A DNA stretch of 64,000 nucleotides from an uncultured Phycisphaerales bacterium (GTDB lineage: Bacteria; Planctomycetota; Phycisphaerae; Tepidisphaerales; Tepidisphaeraceae). Positions 22,985 through 32,725 of this stretch are shown piece by piece. The stretch is taken from positions 736,001 to 800,000 of the forward strand of contig CAWJPJ010000006.1 in NCBI GenBank assembly GCA_963844715.1. The letters run 5' to 3'. Made by a program: the position numbers and the translations under genes. Positions within the stretch are counted from its first letter, which is position 1. Every line of letters begins with the position of its first letter. The notes under the pieces are model-generated. The model worked only from the letters and a program-made list of their open reading frames with translations, made no database searches and was not told the origin of the DNA.

Positions 22985-23110
22985 CTTCGCGGGGATGTTC
23001 GCGGAAGAATTGTTCCTCAGCTTGATCCTCTCCGATACTGCGGAAGCCATCTGAGGAGATGGGGAGGAAATGGGCGTGTCGCGCGCAGTCGCAGGACTCC
23101 GCGCGAAATG

Positions 23111-23152
23111 CCCCTCACCTTGATCCTCTCCCCATGGGTACATGGGGAGAGG
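23111..23152. repeat. REP-like hairpin CCCCTCACC..CCTCTCCCCATG-N4-CATGGGGAGAGG (second copy 32817-32860)
   Basis: 12-bp perfect stem; a near-identical copy lies downstream of the PepSY-like gene. Confidence 0.8.
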
Positions 23153-23197
23153 AAAGTTGTGAGGGGTTCGACGTGGCGCGGTGCGGGCGGCGCAGGC

Positions 23198-24717
23198 TTA
23201 TGTCGCGCGGCGTTTGCGCGGGCGCTGGCGCCCAGGATTGTCGCGGCGCCGAGCATCAGGCCTAGGGACATCGGCTCGGGGACGACCGCCAGGGGCGGGG
23301 TATAGATGGGCGCGTTGTTGGGGGGCGTTACGAAATTGGTGTCGTCGGCCTCGTCGTTTTCGGTGTTGCCGCCGCTTTTGACGCCGGTTTCGTTGTTTTC
23401 CAGTTCGGCTCCGGCGACATCGACATTGTCCATATAGATGTCGTTGGCGTAGTACATTTTCCAGGGGCTTTCGGTTGAGCCGAAAGTGATATTTTCAAAA
23501 TTCAGGCCGGAGATATCGGGGGTGGCGGTGTTCAGGCCATAGATCTGGGCGGCGGAGCCCAGGGAATTGGTGCAGTTGATGTTTTCCATGGTGATATTTT
23601 TCCAGATCGGTTCGGTGGGCGTCGGGGTGTAGGCGGGGGCGGGGATACTGGGATAGTTATCGCTGCCATTGTTGTAATAGCTGTTGATGACCAGGACGTC
23701 GTCGACGTTGGTCATGGTGAAATTGTTGAAAGTGACGTTCTGGACGAGGCCGCCGTTTTCGTTGTTGGTGGTGTTTCCGTCGCCGGCTTTGAGGTGGATA
23801 CCGTTGGAGATTCTGCCGCTGCTGCCGGTGTTGGCGCCGGTTTCGGTGACGTTGTTGACGTACATGCCGTTGAGGCCGGCGTTGGTTTGGCCGCCGATGG
23901 AGATTCCGTGGCCGGCGGTGATGGTGATGTTTTCGATGTTGACGTTGGCGGTATAGGCGGTCATGCCGTTGACGACGGTGGTGTCGGGTTTGGCGCAGAT
24001 GTCATCGTCGCCGTCGGAGATGTTGCAGTTTTCGATGAGGAAATTGGTGCCGGAGAAGTCTATTCCGTCGGTGTTGGCCTGCGTTTTGAGGGGGTCCTGA
24101 ATGGTGACGTCGTTGATGGTGACGTTGTTGTCACACTCGGCGACGAGGTGTTCGTTGGGGGCGTTTTCGATGGTGATATCGTTGACCTCGATGTTGGTGA
24201 GGCCTTCGAGCTGGACCATTTTGTTGTTGGAGGTGCTGGTGGCGTTGCTGTTGAGGATTCCGCCGCCGCTGATTTCGACGTTACCCGTCGCTCCGACGGC
24301 GGAGGAGACGAAGGTGGCGGTGGTTGAGAAATTCTGCAGGGTGGCGCCGGTTTGGATGTCGAGGTTGACGTTGTTGCCGAGGAGAATTTCATCCGCGTCG
24401 TAGGTTCCCGTGGGAATGACGACGGTGCCGCCGCCGTGGGACGCGGCATAGGAGATGTAATCGTTGATGACGGTGGTGTTGTTGGTGGCGATGGTGCTGG
24501 TGGTGCCGACGACGAGGACGTTGGAGGTTCCGATGGAGGGATCGGAAACGTTGGCGTCGTAGACGGAGGAGCCGATGGTTGGGAGCGTGGGGACGGCGTA
24601 GGTTTGCGCGAAGGCGGCGCACGCCGTTCCGGCCGCGAGGATCGCGGGGAGGAGAAATTTCAGGTTTCGACTTCGTTTGGCGATGAGTTTTCGTTCGTGT
24701 CTGGATTGGATCAACAT
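23198..24717 (-). CDS. GH28 (polygalacturonase-like) PEP-CTERM protein, paralogue 1 (frameshift in the basic tail ~23230)
   Basis: NTDG, GDDD, GHG and HLK motifs; VPEPMSLGLMLGAATILG; the alternative frame gives RQRPRKRRAT*. Confidence 0.85.
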
Positions 24718-24766: not shown

Positions 24767-26020
24767 TCAGGCCGGGACCCTACGAGTTCGCCGCGTGAGA
24801 AAACCGATGCCGGCCAATCCGAGGAGGGAGAGGGACATCGGTTCCGGGACTGCAATGACCTGCGTTTCGATTTCGACTTGCGAGATTTCGATGCCGGAGC
24901 CGCCGGTAGCGTCGTCGGTGGATCGATAGCCGACGGCGAGGCTGTCGAAAGAGCTGGTGAGGAAGTTGCTGTTGGTGCTGGTGGAGACGGTGTTGGTGGT
25001 GTCGAGGAGATCGGCGTTGTTGCCGACGTTGGCGGACGTGCCGCTATAAAGTTGGCCGGTCATGGACTCGACGTTGGTGCCGGTGAGTTCGATGGTGAAG
25101 TCTTCCGTGTAGACGCTGCCGCCGGTGAGGTACATGTCGCCGCTGGCATTTTTGCTGCCGACGGTGGTGCCGCCGGTGTAGCTGGAGCTGCTGCTGCTGG
25201 CGTCGCTGACGAGGTCCTGGTCTCGGTTGTCGCCCAGGCTTTGGGCGGGGCGGGTGTCGATGCGGGAGCCGTTGGAGTTACCGGAGGCGAAGAGTTCGGA
25301 GACGTAGCCGATGTCGCTGGCGACGCCGCCGGTGGCGTCGTTGGTGTCGGTGTTCAGAAGCGCGTCTTCAAGATTGTTATCCGGGGCGGAGGTGCCGGCG
25401 TAGCCGGGGCTGGCCTGGGAATTATAGAGGCCGAAATAAATGGCGGCGGAGGTGGACCCGCCACTGGTGACGACGCCATTGGTGCCGTTGGTATCGGTGA
25501 AGGTGAGGATGAGGCTGATTTCTCCGCCGTTGCCCAGAGAAGCGATGGAAACGGGGGAATGGGTGAAGATGGACTCGATTTCGGCGATCTGGTTGCTCGA
25601 TTTGGCGGTGGAGAGGGTGAGTTTGCCGCTGGCGCCGGTGGTGAGAGCGCTGCCGGTGGCGAGCTGGTTGGAGGCGATGTCGTAACCGGCGGAGCTGCCG
25701 GAGGCGAGGGAGCTGTCGGTTGGCGCGGGGTAAGTCGCCGGCTGAAGGACGCTGGCGGTGGGACTGCCGTCGAACATGTCGTTGAAGACGATGGTCGAGG
25801 CGGCCAACGCATGGTTGCATATCGATGCGACCAATGTAATAGTTGCAAACACAACCGATTTTGAAACGAAAGAAACGCGGCGCGCGACGTTGCGAGCAGC
25901 GCTGAGGCGATGGGTGATGGTCAGGTTGTTCAATGGGACGCGTTTGCGCGGGACGGCGCGTGGTGTCTCGCACCGGGTTGTAATTTCAGGCCTGAGGCGC
26001 AGACTCTCGGCGCGGAACAT
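24767..26020 (-). CDS. PEP-CTERM protein of unknown function
   Basis: GGAGGAG RBS before ATG 26020; long signal region; C-terminus VPEPMSLSLLGLAGIGFLTRRTRR. Confidence 0.85.
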   Translation of the reverse strand: MFRAESLRLRPEITTRCETPRAVPRKRVPLNNLTITHRLSAARNVARRVSFVSKSVVFATITLVASICNHALAASTIVFNDMFDGSPTASVLQPATYPAPTDSSLASGSSAGYDIASNQLATGSALTTGASGKLTLSTAKSSNQIAEIESIFTHSPVSIASLGNGGEISLILTFTDTNGTNGVVTSGGSTSAAIYFGLYNSQASPGYAGTSAPDNNLEDALLNTDTNDATGGVASDIGYVSELFASGNSNGSRIDTRPAQSLGDNRDQDLVSDASSSSSSYTGGTTVGSKNASGDMYLTGGSVYTEDFTIELTGTNVESMTGQLYSGTSANVGNNADLLDTTNTVSTSTNSNFLTSSFDSLAVGYRSTDDATGGSGIEISQVEIETQVIAVPEPMSLSLLGLAGIGFLTRRTRRVPA

Positions 26021-26146
26021 GAGCTCCTCCAATCGGTCAGTGGCGCAAGAAGAGCGCGCGATCCGTGAAGAACGATTTCACCGCGCCGTCATGGCGCGGA
26101 TCCTATGATGAAATTTGGGCCGTTGGTGCGCGAGGAGTTGCTGAAG

Positions 26147-26336
26147 CAGGCGGGTCACACCGCTACGGGCGACACATCTACTTTGCAGCACACACGCTCA
26201 AACTGACATGGGTAAAAGAGGGATGAACGAGGTTAGATATACGAATTACTCTCCGCGTGTCAGGCCGGATCCATTGCCGTGGCCGGCCTCCCTTTTTTCC
26301 CACCCTACGTCGCGAATCGCGCACGAGCGATCCGAT
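26147..26336 (-). ncRNA. Candidate structured 5' leader RNA, copy 1
   Basis: 5' block ATCGGATCGC-loop-GCGATTCGCGAC..AGGGTG (26336-26301) and hairpin GTCGCCCG-TAG-CGGTGTGAC (~26173-26154), both matched at 30186-30401. Confidence 0.55.
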
Positions 26337-26342
26337 GAAACA

Positions 26343-26371
26343 AAATTACACCGCGGATCGCAGTGCTGCAA
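26343..26371 (-). promoter_or_regulatory. sigma70-type promoter TTGCAG-N17-TAATTT
   Basis: 17-bp spacer; 6 nt upstream of the conserved ATCGGATCG block, the same spacing as in the second copy. Confidence 0.6.
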
Positions 26372-26662
26372 GATAAAAAGAGACGGCAACATCGCGATAG
26401 CCACAGTTCACAAAGTGGAAATTCTACGCGAGGGAGTATTAATGCCTACGACGTAAAGATTTGGAATGTGCGGAATGTTTGATTTTGTTTGCGGATATTT
26501 TTTTTAAAAAAAATGGAAACGCGAAATGCTTTTTGCAGTTTGCATCTAAGGACGGCGCCGACCTGCGAGTTCCGAGAAGTAGAGAAACGCCGCGAAAAAC
26601 AGGCGGTTTCCCGCCAATAAGATTGTCGCAGTCGAGCCGATAGGATGGGTGCCTATATTCCA

Positions 26663-28189
26663 CTAAGCATTAGCAGACGGCTTGGGGCCGCGTCGCGGGC
26701 GTCTTGAGCCGAGGATTGTCGCGGTGCCGAGCATGAGGCCGGCGGACATTGGCTCGGGCACCGGGGCCAGGGGCGGAGTGTAGATGGGGCTGGCGTTGCC
26801 CGCGGAGACGAAGGTGTCAAATTGTTCGTCGTCGAGGGTGATGCCGCCGTTTTTGTAAGTTCCTTCGACGTCGGGCAAGCTTGCTCCGCGGCAGGAGACA
26901 TTGCTGAAGTAAACGCCGGTTGCGTAGTACATTTTAAAGGCGCTGCCGGAGTTGATGATGTTGACGTTGAGGACATTGACGCCGTTCATATTAAGGGGGT
27001 TGCTGTTGAGTCCGTAGATCCCGGCGGCGTCGCTGACGGCGTTGTTGACGAGGATATTTTCCATCGTGATGTTTTCCCAGATGGGCTCGGTGGAATCGGT
27101 GGGACTGGACGGTGAGGGGACGTTGGGGAAATTGTCGCTCCCGTCGTTGTAGTAGCTGTTGACGACGAGGGCGTCGTCGACGTTGGTCATGGTCATGTTG
27201 TTGAAGGTAACGTTCTGGACGAGGCCGCCATTTTCGTTGTTGGTGACGTTGCCGTCACCGGCCTTGAGGTGGATACCGTCCTGAATGCGTCCGTTGCTGG
27301 TGGTGTTGGCGCCGGTTTCGGTGACGTTATTGACGTACATGCCATTGAGACCGGCGTTGGTCTGCCCGCCGATGGAGATTCCGTGGCCCGCGGTGATGGT
27401 GATGTTTTCTACGTTGACGTTGGCGGTATAGGCGGTCATCCCATTGATGACGGTGGTGTCGGGCTTGGCGACGATATCGTCGTCGCCGTCAGAAAGGCTG
27501 CAATTTTGGATCAGGTAGTTGGTTCCGGAGAAGTCGATGCCATCCGTGTTGGCCTGGGTTTTGAGGGGGTCCTGGATGGTGATCCCGTTGATGGTAACGT
27601 TGTTGTCGCATTCGGCGACGAGATGCTCGTTGGAGGCGTTTTCGATGGTGAGATTCTGGACTTCGACGTTGGTCAGTCCGGCAAGGAAGACCATTTTGTT
27701 GTTGGAGGTGCTGCTGGCGTTGTCGTTGAGAACCCCCCCGCCGCCGACTTCGATGTTGCCGCTGGATCCGGCGGCTTGGGTAACGAACGTGTTGAGCGGC
27801 GTGAAATTCACCAGGGTCGCGCCGGTCTGAACGTCCAGGTTGACGTTATTTTTCATCAAAATTTCGTTGGAGTCGTAGGTACCGGTTGGGACGACGACCG
27901 TCCCGCCGCCGTTGGCCGAGGCGTAGGAGATGTAGTCGTTAAGGACGGTGGTGTTGTTGGTGGCGATGCCGGTTGTAGTGCCGGCGAGAAGGACGTTGGA
28001 GGTTCCGATGGCGGGATCGGAGACGCTGGCGTTGTAGACGGCGGAGCCTATGGTCGGGAGTGTGGGGACGGCGTATTGGGCGATCGCCGAGCGCGTGGCG
28101 GCCGCGACGACGATCGCCGGGACGAGGCGCTGAATGTTGCGGCGGGCGTTTTTGGACAAACCGAAATTACGCGTGGGTTGAATGGACAA
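26663..28189 (-). CDS. GH28 PEP-CTERM protein, paralogue 2 (TTG start)
   Basis: NTDG, GDDD, GHG, HLK; VPEPMSAGLMLGTATILGSRRPRR. The start was placed by alignment with paralogue 3 (SIQP.RNFGLSKNARR). Confidence 0.88.
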   Translation of the reverse strand: MSIQPTRNFGLSKNARRNIQRLVPAIVVAAATRSAIAQYAVPTLPTIGSAVYNASVSDPAIGTSNVLLAGTTTGIATNNTTVLNDYISYASANGGGTVVVPTGTYDSNEILMKNNVNLDVQTGATLVNFTPLNTFVTQAAGSSGNIEVGGGGVLNDNASSTSNNKMVFLAGLTNVEVQNLTIENASNEHLVAECDNNVTINGITIQDPLKTQANTDGIDFSGTNYLIQNCSLSDGDDDIVAKPDTTVINGMTAYTANVNVENITITAGHGISIGGQTNAGLNGMYVNNVTETGANTTSNGRIQDGIHLKAGDGNVTNNENGGLVQNVTFNNMTMTNVDDALVVNSYYNDGSDNFPNVPSPSSPTDSTEPIWENITMENILVNNAVSDAAGIYGLNSNPLNMNGVNVLNVNIINSGSAFKMYYATGVYFSNVSCRGASLPDVEGTYKNGGITLDDEQFDTFVSAGNASPIYTPPLAPVPEPMSAGLMLGTATILGSRRPRRGPKPSANA

Positions 28190-28277
28190 GGGTTCCCCTT
28201 TTCGTATGGAGTATTTAACCGTCGGGAACGAGAACAAGGCTACTATTTCGAATGCGATGCATCGGATTATCCGTAAA

Positions 28278-29813
28278 TTAAGAGGTGCGTCGCGGGCGTC
28301 TTGAGCCGAGGATTGTCGCGGCGCCGAGCATGAGGCCGGCGGACATCGGCTCGGGCACCGGGGCCAAAGGCGGGGTGTAAATGGGGCCGGCTACCGCGGG
28401 ACTGGCGAAGGTGTCAAATTCTTCGTCGTTCACGGTCACGCCGCCGCTGTTTTTTACGTCCATTTCGGAATCGGGGATGAGGGCGCCGCGGACGTTAACG
28501 TTATTGAAATAGAGGCCGGTGGAGTAGTACATTTTCCATGCGCTGCCGGAATTCTGGACGTTGATGTTGAGGAAGTTGAGGCCGATGGTGTTGGCGGGGC
28601 TGGAGTTGAGGCCGTAGATTTCAGCGGCGGAGCCCACTGCGCTGACGACATTGATGTTTTCCATGGTGATGTTTTCCCACAGGGGCTCGGTGGAATCCGT
28701 GGGCGCGGAGGGGGCGGGGATGGTGGGGAAATTGTCATCGCCGTCGTTGTAGTAGCTGTTGATGACCAGGGCGTCGTCAACGTTTGTCATGGTCATGTTG
28801 TTGAAGGTGACGTTTTCGACGAGGCCGCCGTTTTCGGTGTTGGAGGTTGTGCCGTCGCCCGACTTGAGGTGAATTCCCTGCTCGATACGCGTGGTGCTGG
28901 AGGTTCCGGCGCCGGTTTCGGTGACGTTGTTCACGTACATCCCGTTGAGACCGGCGTTGGTCTGGCCGCCGATAGAGATGCCGTGGCCGGCGGTGATGGT
29001 GATGTTTTCGACGTTGACGTTTGCCGTGTAGGCGGTGATGCCGTTGACGACCGTGGTGTCGGGCTTGGCGACGAGGTTGTCATCGCCGTCGGCGATGCTG
29101 GCGTTTTCGATGAGGTAATTGGTGCCGGAGAAGTCGATGCCATCCGTGTTGGCGAGATACTTGCCGCTGTTGGCGGTGAGTGTATTGGGGTCGGCGATGG
29201 TGATGTTGTTGATCGTGACGTTGTTATCGCACTCGGTGACGAGATGCTCGTTGGAGGCGTCCTCGATGGAGAGGTTCTGGACTTCGATGTTGGTCAGGCC
29301 GGAGAGGAAGACCATTTTGTTGTTGGAGGTTTTGGTGGTGGCGTTGTCGTCGAGGACACCGCCGCCGCTGAGTTCGATGTTGCCGGTGGCGCCGCCGGCC
29401 TCGGTGACGAAGGTATTGAGCGGGGTGAAATTCACCAGGGTCGCGCCAGTCTGGACGTCGAGATTGACGTTGTTTTTCATGAGGATTTCGTTCGCGTCGA
29501 AGCTGCCGGTGGGGATGACGACGGTTCCGCCGCCGTTGGCGGAGGCGTAGGAAATATAGTCGTTGAGGACGGTGGTGTTGTTGGTGGCGATGGCGGTTGT
29601 GGTGCCGGCGAGGAGGACGTTGGAGGTTCCGATGGCGGAGTCGGAAACGCCGGCGTTGTAGACGGCGGAGCCGATGGTCGGGAGAGCGGGAACGGCATAT
29701 TGCGCAAGGACGGAGTGCGCGGCGGCGGCGATGACGATCGCCGGGACCAGCCGCTGGATGTTGCGGCGGGCGTTCTTGGACAATCCGAAATTACGAGCGG
29801 GTTGAATGGACAT
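28278..29813 (-). CDS. GH28 PEP-CTERM protein, paralogue 3
   Basis: NTDG, GDDN, GHG, HLK; VPEPMSAGLMLGAATILGSRRPRR. Confidence 0.88.
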   Translation of the reverse strand: MSIQPARNFGLSKNARRNIQRLVPAIVIAAAAHSVLAQYAVPALPTIGSAVYNAGVSDSAIGTSNVLLAGTTTAIATNNTTVLNDYISYASANGGGTVVIPTGSFDANEILMKNNVNLDVQTGATLVNFTPLNTFVTEAGGATGNIELSGGGVLDDNATTKTSNNKMVFLSGLTNIEVQNLSIEDASNEHLVTECDNNVTINNITIADPNTLTANSGKYLANTDGIDFSGTNYLIENASIADGDDNLVAKPDTTVVNGITAYTANVNVENITITAGHGISIGGQTNAGLNGMYVNNVTETGAGTSSTTRIEQGIHLKSGDGTTSNTENGGLVENVTFNNMTMTNVDDALVINSYYNDGDDNFPTIPAPSAPTDSTEPLWENITMENINVVSAVGSAAEIYGLNSSPANTIGLNFLNINVQNSGSAWKMYYSTGLYFNNVNVRGALIPDSEMDVKNSGGVTVNDEEFDTFASPAVAGPIYTPPLAPVPEPMSAGLMLGAATILGSRRPRRTS

Positions 29814-30185
29814 AAAATGCTCTCCCTTTCAAGTTGATAGACAAAACCGACCGCAACCACAGTGAATAATGTGATTGCACTAAATACGACTAATCTGGAG
29901 GCTCATGGCGCGGGGCGGCGAACGTACGCCTGCGCGGCGCGGGGAGCTATCCTTGTTTGGATCTCCGTTGCAACCAGAGGGAACGAAAATGGGCGCTCGG
30001 CGCATCGCAGCCGAGAGCGCTTTGCGCCATGCGCGAAGCATGCGCCCTCCCTCGGGAGCCGGCGGCCCTAAAAACGCCGGCGGCGGAGATCGGGTAAATG
30101 GGCAGTGCGCGTCATCATCGACGCATGCCCTGCGGATTAAATTGGGATCGAAGGCGTGCGAGAGGCAGGAAGGAAATGAGGACGA

Positions 30186-30401
30186 TTCACACCGCTACAG
30201 GTGAACAGTCACACATTTCGCGCAGCGCATTATAAATGGCTGCCAATGAGATGGATACAAACCGATGAAAAATGGAAAGGCCTAAAACAAATGCCCTTTT
30301 TATTTGAGTGCGCAAATGCTCCCAATATTGAAGCCTGCGCCAACCACCCTCCACCGTTTTCCGTCTCACCCTGGTCGCGAATCGCTTACCGACGATCCGA
30401 T
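30186..30401 (-). ncRNA. Candidate structured 5' leader RNA, copy 2
   Basis: ATCGGATCGT-loop-GCGATTCGCGACC-AGGGTG (30401-30367) and hairpin TTCACCTG-TAG-CGGTGTGAA (~30205-30186). Confidence 0.55.
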
Positions 30402-30407
30402 TTAGTC

Positions 30408-30436
30408 AGTTTAACTCATAGGGAATTCCCTGACAA
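30408..30436 (-). promoter_or_regulatory. sigma70-type promoter TTGTCA-N17-TAAACT
   Basis: Near-consensus -35 and -10 with a 17-bp spacer, 6 nt upstream of ATCGGATCG. Confidence 0.7.
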
Positions 30437-30574
30437 GAAAAAAGCGAGTGCCCCGTTCAATTTTTTTAACTTATCTTTCATTTTGTTGGCCGGAGAGGAA
30501 GTGCTAGTGCCGTTCTGCTCGGAAATTACGGCGAAATATCGTTGTCGGAACGAATGAAAAATAAATTCTTTAAT

Positions 30575-32045
30575 TCATAAACGAGAAATTGGATCTGAGG
30601 AAATCGAAGGGGACTGGGAGGGGTAGCTCTGGTTTGCGGGAGCGGCGTGGAGTTTGAGATGGACGATGAAGAGGCCGCCCTGGCTCGGTTCGACGGTCAG
30701 GTCGCCATTGAGAATGCGGACCAGTCTTTGGCAGAGGGAGAGGCCCAGGCCGCAGTGGGCGCCGTTGTTGGAACGGGCCTGGTCGCCGCGCCAGAAACGG
30801 TCGAAAACGCTGGGGACCTCGGCGGCGGCGACCTGGCTGCCGGTGTTGCTCAGCAGAATTTCGACGGAATTTTGGTCGGAATTGGTGGCGAGATTGAGGG
30901 CACCCCCGGCATCAGCGTAGGAGACGGCGTTGTCGAAGAGGTTGTCGATGACAATGCGGAGGAGGTCGGGGTCGGAGTGAATAAAAATGGAGGACAGAGC
31001 CCCCCACTGCATGGAAAGGCCCCGGGCAATAGCGCGGGGGGAATACTGGGCCCAGGATTCCTCGAGGAATTGACGGAGATCGATGGATTGGGGACGGGCG
31101 GTGAGCTGCCGACTGTCGGCGCGGGCCAGGAGTAGAAGGCGCTGAACCATTTCCTGCATGCGAACGACGATCATCGAGCATTTGTCGATGGCGGCTTCGT
31201 ACCCGGTCGAATCGCGCGGGCGAAGGCGGCAGACTTCGAGGGTGGTTCGCAAGCCGGCCAGAGGGGTGCGGAGTTCGTGGGCGACGTCGGCGGTGAAAGC
31301 GCGTTCGCGGGAGAAGGCGGATTCGAGGCGTTCGAGCAGACCATTGAGGCGGTCGACCATGGGGGCGAGTTCGGCGGGGACGCCGTCCAGATTGAAACGG
31401 TGCGAGAGTTCGGTTTCGCCGAGTGATTCGATTTCGCGGGACAGGCGGCGCATGGGGCGGAGGGCGCGATTGACGACGATCATCAGAACGGCGCCGCAAA
31501 TGAGAGCCGCGGCGGCGGAGAGCCCGGCGAGAAGGCCGCGAAGGTTTTCAAGGGTTTCGTCGACGGGGAAAGTGCCGTGCGCGACAGTGAGCATCGCGGT
31601 ATGGGGAGAAGTGCTGGTCGGGAGCTTATCTTCATCGAGGGGCATGTAGTGGATATTGATCCAGCGGCCGGGGCGGCCGTCGGGGAGGGGGGAATTGTAA
31701 TACGCCGAGGAGTCGGAGACGGCCGGGTGCGCGAGTTGGGAGGAGCCGAGCGAGACGGAGTGCCCGAGGGAGCCGGCGCCGTCGGTCCAGATCTGGAAGT
31801 ATTCGGGATTGTGGGCGGTTTGGAATTCGGGCATTTCGTCGCGGACGAATTCGAACTTGACGCGGCCGTGATGCTGCTCGGTCATGGAGGCCAGCGCACG
31901 GGCCTCAGTAAAAAGGTCCTGATCGAACTGCGATCGGATGGCATTTGCGAAGAAGTAATAGATGCCGGCGCTCGAGGAGACCGAGGAGGATGACCATGGT
32001 GACGATGGTGCCGGCGAGGAGTCTTAGTCGAAGGGAGCGGATCAT
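30575..32045 (-). CDS. HAMP sensor histidine kinase, CusS/QseC-like (frameshift ~31975)
   Basis: FTADVAHELRTPL H-box, NLFDNA and GLGLSL; ATG overlaps the regulator stop. Confidence 0.9.
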
Positions 32046-32725
32046 CGCGACTCCGGGACGACTCCGAGCATATAACCCTGGCCGCGCTTGGTGTGAATGA
32101 GCCGCGGCTTGTCCGGGCGCTCGACCTTTTTACGCAGGAATCCGATGAAGACGTCGATGACATTGCTTTCGAGGGAGGCATTGATGTCGGCGATGTGCTG
32201 CCAGAGATCGCGGCGGGTGACGGTGCGATCGGCGTTCAGAGCGAGATATTCGAGCAGCGCGTATTCGCGGGCGCTGAGGTCGATGAGGGTGGCGCCGCGT
32301 TTGACGACTCGGCGCGCCGTGTCAATCTCAAGATCGTCGATGCGAATGAGGGCGGTTTTGGCGTCGTATTTGCGGCGGATGAGAGCGTTGATGCGGGCGA
32401 GAAGTTCGGAAAAGTTGAAAGGTTTGACGAGATAATCATCGGCGCCGAGGTCCAGGCCGCGGACTTTGTCCTCGGTGGTGTCCCTGGCGGTGAGGACCAG
32501 GACATGTGAGGGGGATTTATCCTTGCGGAGGGACTTGAGGACGGACAAGCCGTCTACTTCGGGGAGCATCAGGTCGAGGATGATGACGTCATATTCGCCG
32601 GCGCGGGCGTGCCAGAGGGCGGACTTACCGTCGGCGGCTTCGTCGACGGCGTAGCCGGCCTCGCGCAGACCCTGGACGATGGATTCGCGCAGAGGCTGAA
32701 AATCTTCGACAACCAAAAGTCGCAT
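32042..32725 (-). CDS. OmpR-family response regulator (CusR/QseB-like)
   Basis: LVVED, LDLMLP, GADDYLVKPF and HTKRGQGY motifs. Confidence 0.95.
   Translation of the reverse strand: MRLLVVEDFQPLRESIVQGLREAGYAVDEAADGKSALWHARAGEYDVIILDLMLPEVDGLSVLKSLRKDKSPSHVLVLTARDTTEDKVRGLDLGADDYLVKPFNFSELLARINALIRRKYDAKTALIRIDDLEIDTARRVVKRGATLIDLSAREYALLEYLALNADRTVTRRDLWQHIADINASLESNVIDVFIGFLRKKVERPDKPRLIHTKRGQGYMLGVVPESR

What the first reader, a model, noticed from the sequence alone, without database searches (positions are those of the whole stretch)
26147..30436. Two PEP-CTERM operons share a promoter geometry and a conserved structured 5' leader: candidate new cis-regulatory RNA
Seen (minus strand): TTGCAG-N17-TAATTT (26371-26343) and TTGTCA-N17-TAAACT (30436-30408) are each followed after exactly 6 nt by ATCGGATCG-N7-GCGATTCGCGAC-N1/2-AGGGTG. 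This block folds as CGGAUCGY/GCGAUUCG, with the differences confined to the loop and a C-G to U-G closing pair. The surrounding sequence does not obviously align. The leaders are long (~316 and ~588 nt) and each precedes a two-gene PEP-CTERM operon containing GH28 genes. I do not recognise the motif as a known riboswitch. Inference: a structured leader beginning at +1, or an operator overlapping the start site.
Basis: partly seen in the sequence, partly recalled or inferred. Interest (0 to 1): 0.75.

Follow-up and report, generated by a model that had tools for sequence, protein, structure and literature searches.

The report
Folded mRNA leader with small-RNA sites
Two neighbouring operons for predicted surface-anchored pectin-degrading proteins start with a duplicated untranslated leader that is predicted to keep the same four-part fold despite 44% sequence change, and some of its kept words are complementary to a likely small regulatory RNA elsewhere in the genome, which would let that RNA dampen these genes from far upstream of their start codons.

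Summary
The promoter-like hexamers and +1 block are real and occur twice in the genome. They head a larger duplicated module (about 260-300 nt, 56% identical) with four predicted domains in the same order. Shared pairing far exceeds neutral-divergence simulations (0 of 150, both directions), so a neutral remnant is unlikely. A second invariant 12-mer at the tip of hairpin D3, and the AGGGTG word, are complementary to the two single-stranded seeds of a terminator-ended, C/U-rich small-RNA candidate found only in this genome and one congener. Those seed complements are strand-specifically enriched before PEP-CTERM genes in both genomes, but hardly in a congener lacking the element. Best reading: a structured, 5'-protected leader that is a distal small-RNA target (LhrC/tcsA-like), likely repressed by decay or Rho. 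Limits: two copies only, no homolog in 140 family genomes, Rfam, GTDB or metagenome scans, no RNA data, weak 5' site in leader 2. The scan noted the small RNA earlier in this genome, and similar duplicated PEP-CTERM leaders in other genomes without sequence likeness.

The parts
30408..30436 (-). sigma70-type promoter of leader 2 (TTGTCA-N17-TAAACT); predicted +1 at 30401
   Evidence: start site not measured
30378..30399 (-). Leader 2 D1: 5'-terminal 8-bp hairpin (nt 3-24), two unpaired 5' bases
   Evidence: z -2.0
30367..30372 (-). Leader 2 AGGGTG word: 6-bp, weak complement of the small-RNA loop seed
   Evidence: net -3.5 kcal/mol
30346..30355 (-). Leader 2 nt 47-56: 10-bp complement (with G-U pairs) of the small-RNA linker seed, in the 5' strand of D2
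30243..30374 (-). Leader 2 D2: long purine/pyrimidine rod with two inner hairpins
   Evidence: z -3.3, 0 of 200 shuffles as stable
30173..30219 (-). Leader 2 D3 hairpin; invariant 12-mer at 30198-30187 with an 8-bp complement of the linker seed
   Evidence: z -4.4
30145..30161 (-). Leader 2: 3' partner of long-range helix P1 (pairs with nt 4-20, excludes D1)
30100..30130 (-). Leader 2 D4 hairpin
29814..30099 (-). Leader 2 tail, about 285 nt not shared with leader 1; structured; ends in a ribosome-binding site partly complementary to the linker seed
28278..29813 (-). GH28 protein with C-terminal PEP-CTERM-like motif (gene A)
26663..28198 (-). GH28 paralog (gene B), 80% identical to A
26595..26615 (-). 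Intrinsic-terminator-like hairpin and T run after gene B, separating the two units
26343..26371 (-). sigma70-type promoter of leader 1 (TTGCAG-N17-TAATTT); predicted +1 at 26336
   Evidence: start site not measured
26313..26334 (-). Leader 1 D1: 5'-terminal 8-bp hairpin
   Evidence: z -1.8
26298..26308 (-). Leader 1 nt 29-39: 11-bp complement of the small-RNA loop seed (plus 3 bp from nt 24-26); contains AGGGTG
26205..26311 (-). Leader 1 D2 rod; holds a 9-bp complement of the linker seed at 26256-26248
   Evidence: z -2.2
26139..26190 (-). Leader 1 D3 hairpin; invariant 12-mer at 26166-26155 with a 7-bp complement of the linker seed
   Evidence: z -3.8
26117..26133 (-). Leader 1: 3' partner of P1, same register as in leader 2
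   Evidence: one low-depth contig has a 1-base insertion here
26081..26099 (-). Leader 1 D4 hairpin
   Evidence: z -4.1
24767..26020 (-). PEP-CTERM protein of no named family; ortholog in congener G001 also precedes a GH28 gene
23017..24717 (-). GH28 paralog (gene C), 68% identical to A and B

Best explanation
The two regions are copies of one duplicated promoter-plus-leader module whose first 260-300 bases are predicted to keep a shared four-domain fold, and which likely serves as a distal, multi-site target of a C/U-rich small-RNA candidate encoded elsewhere in the genome, pairing with which would lower output of the two operons. Shown: duplication, shared blocks, complementarity, enrichment of the seed words before PEP-CTERM genes. 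Predicted: without the small RNA the leader folds D1 (or the long-range helix P1), D2, D3 and D4 into a compact, 5'-protected, long-lived message for abundant surface proteins. The small RNA (G000:C6 near 1064765 and 1065165; linker seed plus terminator-loop seed) catches the G-rich strand just 3' of D1 while it is still open in the nascent RNA (opening cost 2-5 kcal/mol, against 8-13 once D2 has closed), and the D3 tip at any time (3.4-5.6). This keeps D2 from closing and leaves its C/U-rich 3' strand single-stranded. Inferred: RNase E/Y cleavage, or less likely Rho loading, then removes the transcript. D1 is invariant because it must satisfy two alternative pairings, not because of the small RNA.
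For: Structure under selection: shared-pair score 27.8 against 2.6+-2.5 and 2.8+-2.6 in simulations, 0 of 150 each way. In D3 and D4, 33 of 34 cells pair, with 2 double and 4 single-side changes; slid controls pair 21-59%. D2 strands pair better with their own than with the other leader's partner (-19.4 and -27.4 against -10.8 and -19.1). In the D3 tip the 5' strand has 3 changes in 8 bases while 12 bases on the loop and 3' side are invariant, as expected of an outside partner. The element has a terminator and open seeds; 2 copies in G000, 3 in G001, none in the other 139 family genomes by exact pattern. Four seed-complement words lie before 13 of 28 G000 PEP-CTERM genes against 97 of 2446 other genes; antisense control 0 of 28. 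GTAGCGG without the two leaders: 4 of 26 against 40 of 2446, p 1e-3. Independent check with all 7-mers of both seeds: G001 14 of 28 against 0 of 28 antisense; G002, without the element, 8 of 43 against 5 of 43. Leader 1: 0 of 100 shuffled seeds and 1 of 100 shuffled leaders pair as well, for each seed. Counting partner accessibility, 10 of 1500 random intergenic windows match both D3 tips as well and 1 of 1500 matches leader 1 nt 23-40 as well. Holding the 5' sites open raises unpairing of the D2 3' strand from 0.27 to 0.63 and from 0.22 to 0.63. Rho, RNase E/G and RNase Y matches are present; Hfq was not found. Precedents: LhrC/tcsA (PMC8079631, passages) and CsrA refolding of the pgaA leader (PMC6582626, passages).
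Against: Only two copies; the column-shuffle control is uninformative (117 of 500) and the structure was drawn from these sequences. No RNA data: neither leader nor small RNA is shown to be transcribed. Leader 2 is a weaker target: linker seed 7 of 100 and 5 of 100, loop seed 99 of 100 and 40 of 100 shuffles as good; its AGGGTG site nets only -3.5 kcal/mol, and 209 of 1500 windows do as well on both blocks together. By raw energy the element is unremarkable (-25.3 against -42.9 for the best of 124502 windows; 280 of 1500 as good at D3). The D3 match is only 7-8 bp and partly inside a stem; opening it changes nothing else in the fold, and no site changes ribosome-site accessibility. GTAGCGG ranks only 39th of 874 7-mers once the two leaders are left out. 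One seed word resembles a Shine-Dalgarno sequence, which inflates its enrichment; the words were picked after seeing G000. C-over-G skew of the leaders is ordinary (24% of 1578 upstream regions as high), which weakens the Rho branch. P1 and D1 are near-equal in leader 1 (+0.2 to +3.9) but P1 wins by 6.6-8.2 kcal/mol in leader 2. The direction of the effect is inferred; small RNAs can also protect long leaders from Rho (PMC6582626).
Confidence: 0.45

Rival explanations
1. A purely structural stabilizing leader: the 5' hairpin and long rods protect an abundant message, and the seed matches are by-products of G-rich stems.
For: D1 starts two bases from the predicted 5' end; B. subtilis RppH needs at least two unpaired 5' bases and prefers three (PMC3997798, passage). 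The G001 ortholog has a different but strongly folded leader with a stem from its start (z -3.8). Leader 2's 5' site is weak.
Against: Does not explain the one-sided invariance of the D3 tip, the strand-specific enrichment of the same words before other PEP-CTERM genes, or the 11-bp site in leader 1 that recurs as a 10-mer near the start of a third GH28 leader. It is compatible with the best explanation as its ground state.
Confidence: 0.22
2. An orphan riboswitch or protein-controlled switch: D1 and P1 are two states of a sensor domain, with different expression platforms in the two leaders.
For: P1 and D1 exclude each other and P1 has the same register in both copies (14 and 13 of 17 pairs). 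In leader 1 a third partner (nt 272-283) overlaps a segment that can pair with the ribosome-binding site.
Against: No homolog beyond this genome, even in the orthologous operon of a congener; no Rfam match; no shared terminator or shared ribosome-site switch; the forced states barely change ribosome-site accessibility (0.15-0.26; 0.37-0.40); P1 shows no double compensatory change.
Confidence: 0.12
3. Neutral remnants of a local duplication.
For: The GH28 genes are tandem paralogs (68-80% identical); the motif is confined to the duplicated pair; overall identity of 56% is about what drift could leave.
Against: Clustered identity (4 of 20000) and shared folding (0 of 150 twice); swapped D2 strands pair worse. 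The simulations assume evenly spread change and no gene conversion.
Confidence: 0.08
4. Block 1 is a DNA operator overlapping the start site.
For: It is an 8-6-8 near-palindrome at +3 to +24; a two-component pair lies just upstream.
Against: Only 3 other genomic matches, none looking promoter-proximal; absent from the orthologous promoter in G001; does not explain D2-D4; OmpR-family regulators usually bind direct repeats (recalled).
Confidence: 0.06
5. The D3 12-mer is an ops-like pause and loading site for the genome's NusG paralog.
For: A second NusG-family gene heads a polysaccharide cluster; paralog loading sites with pause hairpins lie in leaders in Bacteroides (PMC11685472, passages).
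Against: Likeness to the RfaH site is from recall, and its register relative to the pause position does not fit; I saw no such word in the paralog's own upstream region by eye; the operons are about 3 kb; the word is explained as a seed complement.
Confidence: 0.05

Closest known systems
LhrC1-5 and the tcsA 5' UTR of Listeria monocytogenes (PMC8079631, passages read)
   Same: Multicopy C/U-rich small RNA with seeds in a single-stranded linker and in the terminator loop; Hfq-independent pairing; targets are surface-protein genes; some sites overlap the ribosome site, one lies far upstream and triggers decay.
   Different: No sequence likeness tested; different phylum; here one copy is the 3' end of a PEP-CTERM gene; the target leader is 316-588 nt, heavily folded, has 3-4 sites and a two-state 5' end; nothing is shown by experiment.
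Trans-factor control of Rho in long leaders: rpoS with DsrA/RprA/ArcZ, pgaA with CsrA (PMC6582626, passages read)
   Same: Long untranslated leader; binding far upstream refolds it and changes access to a C-rich stretch; Rho is present.
   Different: The rpoS RNAs are Hfq-dependent and activate; pgaA uses a protein. Here the pyrimidine stretch is short (35-40 nt against 60-80) and its skew is ordinary.
5'-terminal stem-loop stabilizers such as the ompA 5' UTR (title seen in the reference list of PMC3997798; mechanism recalled)
   Same: Hairpin within two bases of the 5' end of a message for an envelope protein.
   Different: Here the hairpin sequence is invariant and has an alternative long-range partner.
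Orphan structured motifs and riboswitch candidates (Weinberg 2010, PMC2864571; search listing only)
   Same: Uncatalogued folded leader in front of related genes.
   Different: Those motifs are defined by many homologs with covariation; this one has two paralogous copies in one genome.

Membership tests
Riboswitch / Rfam cis-regulatory family | Match to a catalogued covariance model | tested here: not met
   Only a tRNA in the window at gathering score; two chance hits at E 1 and 2.1 in 25900-30700
Riboswitch / Rfam cis-regulatory family | Conserved aptamer across species with covariation | tested here: not met
   R1: 2 of 140 family genomes with weak hits inside long open frames, 0 of 150 class genomes; R2: 25 of 140 with weak hits, none with promoter plus downstream domains
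Riboswitch / Rfam cis-regulatory family | Expression platform switched by alternative folds | tested here: inconclusive
   D1/P1 alternative in both copies, but no shared terminator and little change at the ribosome site
Riboswitch / Rfam cis-regulatory family | Ligand binding | not testable with these tools
   needs probing
Target of a trans-acting base-pairing small RNA (LhrC-like) | A conserved, terminator-ended non-coding element with accessible seeds | tested here: met
   5 copies in 2 genomes, seeds near-invariant, opening cost 0-3.4 kcal/mol; no Rfam match at gathering score
Target of a trans-acting base-pairing small RNA (LhrC-like) | Seed complement in the target beyond chance | tested here: inconclusive
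   Met for leader 1 and, with accessibility, for both D3 tips; not met for the 5' site of leader 2 or by raw energy
Target of a trans-acting base-pairing small RNA (LhrC-like) | Seed words enriched in a coherent target set and tracking the small RNA's presence | tested here: met
   G000 13 of 28; G001 14 of 28 against 0 of 28; G002 8 of 43 against 5 of 43; three related genomes only
Target of a trans-acting base-pairing small RNA (LhrC-like) | Expression of both RNAs and a seed-dependent effect | not testable with these tools
   no RNA run available
Rho-attenuated leader | Long single-stranded C-rich, G-poor stretch | tested here: inconclusive
   freed when sites are held open, but skew matched by 24% of 1578 upstream regions; Rho present
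Repressor operator | Palindrome recurring at promoters of a regulon | tested here: not met
   5 genomic matches, only these 2 at apparent promoters
RfaH/UpxY loading site | NusG paralog in the genome | tested here: met
RfaH/UpxY loading site | Consensus pause in register, and long operon | tested here: not met
   register judged against a recalled consensus; operons about 3 kb

The most novel reading that the evidence does not exclude
The leader is a new kind of kinetic switch in planctomycetes: an Hfq-free small RNA, one copy of which is cut from the 3' end of a PEP-CTERM message, docks co-transcriptionally with both seeds on a 270-base folded leader, decides between the D1 and P1 folds, and unmasks a cryptic Rho or nuclease site, so that one surface protein silences the pectinase-type surface proteins hundreds of bases before their start codons.
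Probability: 0.15. Interest if true: 0.75.

Novelty: new variant of a known kind. Interest (0 to 1): 0.5.

Why it matters
Post-transcriptional control in this phylum is little described (three library searches, listed no paper on small-RNA control of PEP-CTERM genes; subscription journals and supplements were not searched). If right, this gives a defined small RNA, two natural variants of a folded target leader and exact sites, so distal, Hfq-independent control of the surface proteome can be tested by compensatory mutation. It also offers a reading for other orphan duplicated PEP-CTERM leaders: their invariant words may be landing sites for trans RNAs rather than aptamer cores. As a motif it is narrow (one genome), which limits its weight.

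Tried and rejected
Homolog searches found nothing. Exact block-1 pattern: 0 of 40 relatives. D3 pattern with 1 mismatch: 11 of 140 family genomes, fewer than the reversed-pattern control and none with the hairpin context. BLAST of leader 1: only short scattered hits, best E 6e-5; 0 of 140 for a 60-base piece searched by mistake. JGI metagenomes: the GH28 protein found no relative; the block-1 pattern gave 111 hits, none followed by the AGGGTG word and none near a GH28 or partner homolog. GTDB: the partner protein found no relative; the D3 pattern gave 11 scattered hits in unrelated taxa that match only the tip. Plasmids: no match. R1 without filters on 13 homolog loci: 0 hits. The best R2 hits are a coding stretch (L211) and a palindrome at a gene end (L212). 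Upstream regions of 13 loci with homologs of the 417-aa protein show no such leader by eye. The leader-2 tail aligns no better than shuffles to the start of the partner gene or to other intergenic regions. No RNA holder was listed; the start of leader 2 had no listed contig cover. Short upstream reading frames exist but are not shared between the leaders (read). RNase J was not found with one model in an 85% complete genome. Whole-leader folding z-scores are modest (-0.9, -1.7, -2.2). The look-up of earlier findings by sequence found no look-alike.

Full report
Observation. The window is G000:C6:736001-800000. The promoter type is used in this genome: tRNA genes carry it, and a stricter pattern occurs 109 times in 2361 upstream regions against 24-30 in shuffles. 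Start sites are not measured. Leader 2 (588 nt) precedes GH28 genes A and B, then a terminator-like hairpin; leader 1 (316 nt) precedes a 417-aa PEP-CTERM protein and GH28 gene C. A, B and C are tandem paralogs of 68-80% identity; fourfold sites differ at 25-33% although about three quarters of them are C, so neutral divergence is large. The congener G001 has the order partner gene, then GH28, so the module was probably duplicated locally. The phylum is taken from earlier notes, not from a tool label.

The element is larger than reported. The leaders align at 56% over 262 ungapped columns and share a second exact 12-mer found twice in the genome. Folding by transcript length gives four domains in the same order: D1, the 5' hairpin; D2, a long purine/pyrimidine rod; D3, a long hairpin with the 12-mer at its tip; D4, a short hairpin. 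Domain z-scores run from -1.8 to -4.4; whole-leader scores are weaker. Of 17 named pairs in D3 and D4, 33 of 34 cells pair, two pairs change on both sides, four on one side, one breaks; slid controls pair 21-59%, while the shuffle control says nothing with two rows (117 of 500). When the same number of changes is spread evenly, shared pairing is 2.6+-2.5 and 2.8+-2.6 against 27.8 observed (0 of 150 each way), and runs of 12, 12 and 9 arise in 4 of 20000. D2 strands pair better with their own partner than with the other leader's. D1 has a mutually exclusive long-range partner, P1, in the same register in both copies (14 and 13 of 17 pairs); the states are near-equal in leader 1 and P1 wins by 6.6-8.2 kcal/mol in leader 2. 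One low-depth contig has an extra base in leader 1's P1 partner.

Distribution. Rfam has no match. Patterns, BLAST and two covariance models built from the two copies found no homolog in 140 family genomes or 150 class genomes. Collection scans gave only chance hits: 111 in metagenomes, 11 in GTDB. The G001 ortholog has the same promoter type and a 410-base leader that folds strongly (z -3.8) but does not align to either leader. A riboswitch aptamer would normally be recognisable at this distance (general knowledge).

A trans partner. While testing an ops-like reading, a scan for the D3 word turned up two copies of its complement at C6:1064765 and 1065165. Each is a C/U-rich linker followed by a G-C hairpin with an 18-base C-rich loop and a U run; one ends a PEP-CTERM gene, the other stands alone. 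G001 has three copies, the other 139 family genomes none by exact pattern; Rfam has no real match. The linker seed pairs with both D3 tips (7 and 8 bp), with leader 1 nt 81-89 (9 bp), leader 2 nt 47-56 (10 bp with G-U) and gene A's ribosome site.

Tests of that link. Four seed words lie before 13 of 28 PEP-CTERM genes against 97 of 2446 others; their antisense forms before 0 of 28 (my own gene calls, regions of 80-600 bases). The words were chosen on this genome, so I checked two more: with all 7-mers of both seeds, G001 gives 14 of 28 against 0 of 28 antisense, and G002, which lacks the element, 8 of 43 against 5 of 43 (the search listed 34 and 48 PEP-CTERM hits, of which some were not fetched or had no upstream DNA). 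Without the two leaders the D3 word stands at 4 of 26 against 40 of 2446 (p 1e-3) but ranks only 39th of 874; D1 words are not enriched. Leader 1 beats shuffles for both seeds; leader 2 is borderline for one and fails for the other. By raw energy the element is not special; with its accessibility counted, 10 of 1500 windows do as well at both D3 tips, 1 of 1500 at leader 1's 5' site, but 209 of 1500 on both blocks together. So the D3 tip and leader 1's 5' site are supported, and leader 2's AGGGTG looks decayed or is kept for structure.

Mechanism. The 5' sites cost 2-5 kcal/mol to open in a nascent RNA and 8-13 after D2 closes; the D3 tip costs 3.4-5.6 throughout. Holding the 5' sites open frees the C/U-rich 3' strand of D2 (0.22-0.27 to 0.63) and leaves the ribosome site unchanged, so a direct translational effect is unlikely for these sites. 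Rho, RNase E/G and RNase Y matches are present (the last two broken, probably by assembly errors), Hfq and RNase J were not found in this 85% complete genome. Passages of PMC8079631 describe Hfq-independent LhrC pairing far upstream in tcsA, causing decay; passages of PMC6582626 describe CsrA refolding the pgaA leader to expose a Rho site, and small RNAs protecting the rpoS leader. I commit to repression, mainly by decay, since the C skew is ordinary. D1, two bases from the 5' end, fits a protective role (PMC3997798, passage) and owes its invariance to pairing in both D1 and P1. All steps after complementarity are predicted or inferred.

Verdict. A real, selected, uncatalogued leader fold, confined so far to two paralogous copies, that works most likely like a distal small-RNA target and is not shown to be a riboswitch or an operator. 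Papers: passages only of PMC8079631, PMC6582626, PMC11685472 and PMC3997798; listings only; no supplements were read, and motif tables there could hold a match. Interest 0.5.

Noticed in passing
G000:C6:1064745-1065225 (L253): Small-RNA candidate in two copies, one at the 3' end of a PEP-CTERM gene and one with its own AT-rich upstream region and a folded 5' part also seen in G001; two seeds.
   Followed up: partly
G000:C7:849436-849700 (minus strand) and L185: A third GH28 PEP-CTERM gene has a leader of about 210 nt with the same 10-base loop-seed site near its start; its G001 ortholog aligns (score 59, shuffle maximum 33) and has a linker-seed match near the start instead.
   Followed up: partly
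L184:7400-7810: G001 ortholog of operon 1: unrelated but strongly folded 410-base leader, with linker-seed-like matches at both ribosome sites of the operon.
   Followed up: partly
G000:C6:1010742-1011335 (minus strand): NusG paralog at the head of a polysaccharide gene cluster of about 25 kb.
   Followed up: no
window 23017-23230: Gene C runs about 30 codons past the usual PEP-CTERM tail; one low-depth contig shows indels at 23195 and 23225, so the end may be an assembly frameshift.
   Followed up: no
window 26560-26800 and 28278-28420: The 3' ends of genes A and B are about 88% identical in DNA over 133 bases, more than the rest, hinting at gene conversion.
   Followed up: no
L197, L198, L201, L048 upstream of the matched gene: In genus g18, homologs of the 417-aa protein share a conserved upstream block of about 60 bases unrelated to this leader, possibly an operator or alternative promoter.
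   Followed up: no
window 30575-32725: OmpR-type response regulator and sensor kinase directly upstream of promoter 2, same strand, no terminator-like site called between them and the promoter.
   Followed up: no
window 29852-29879: A 10-bp hairpin with a weak T run just before gene A's ribosome site; not present in leader 1.
   Followed up: no
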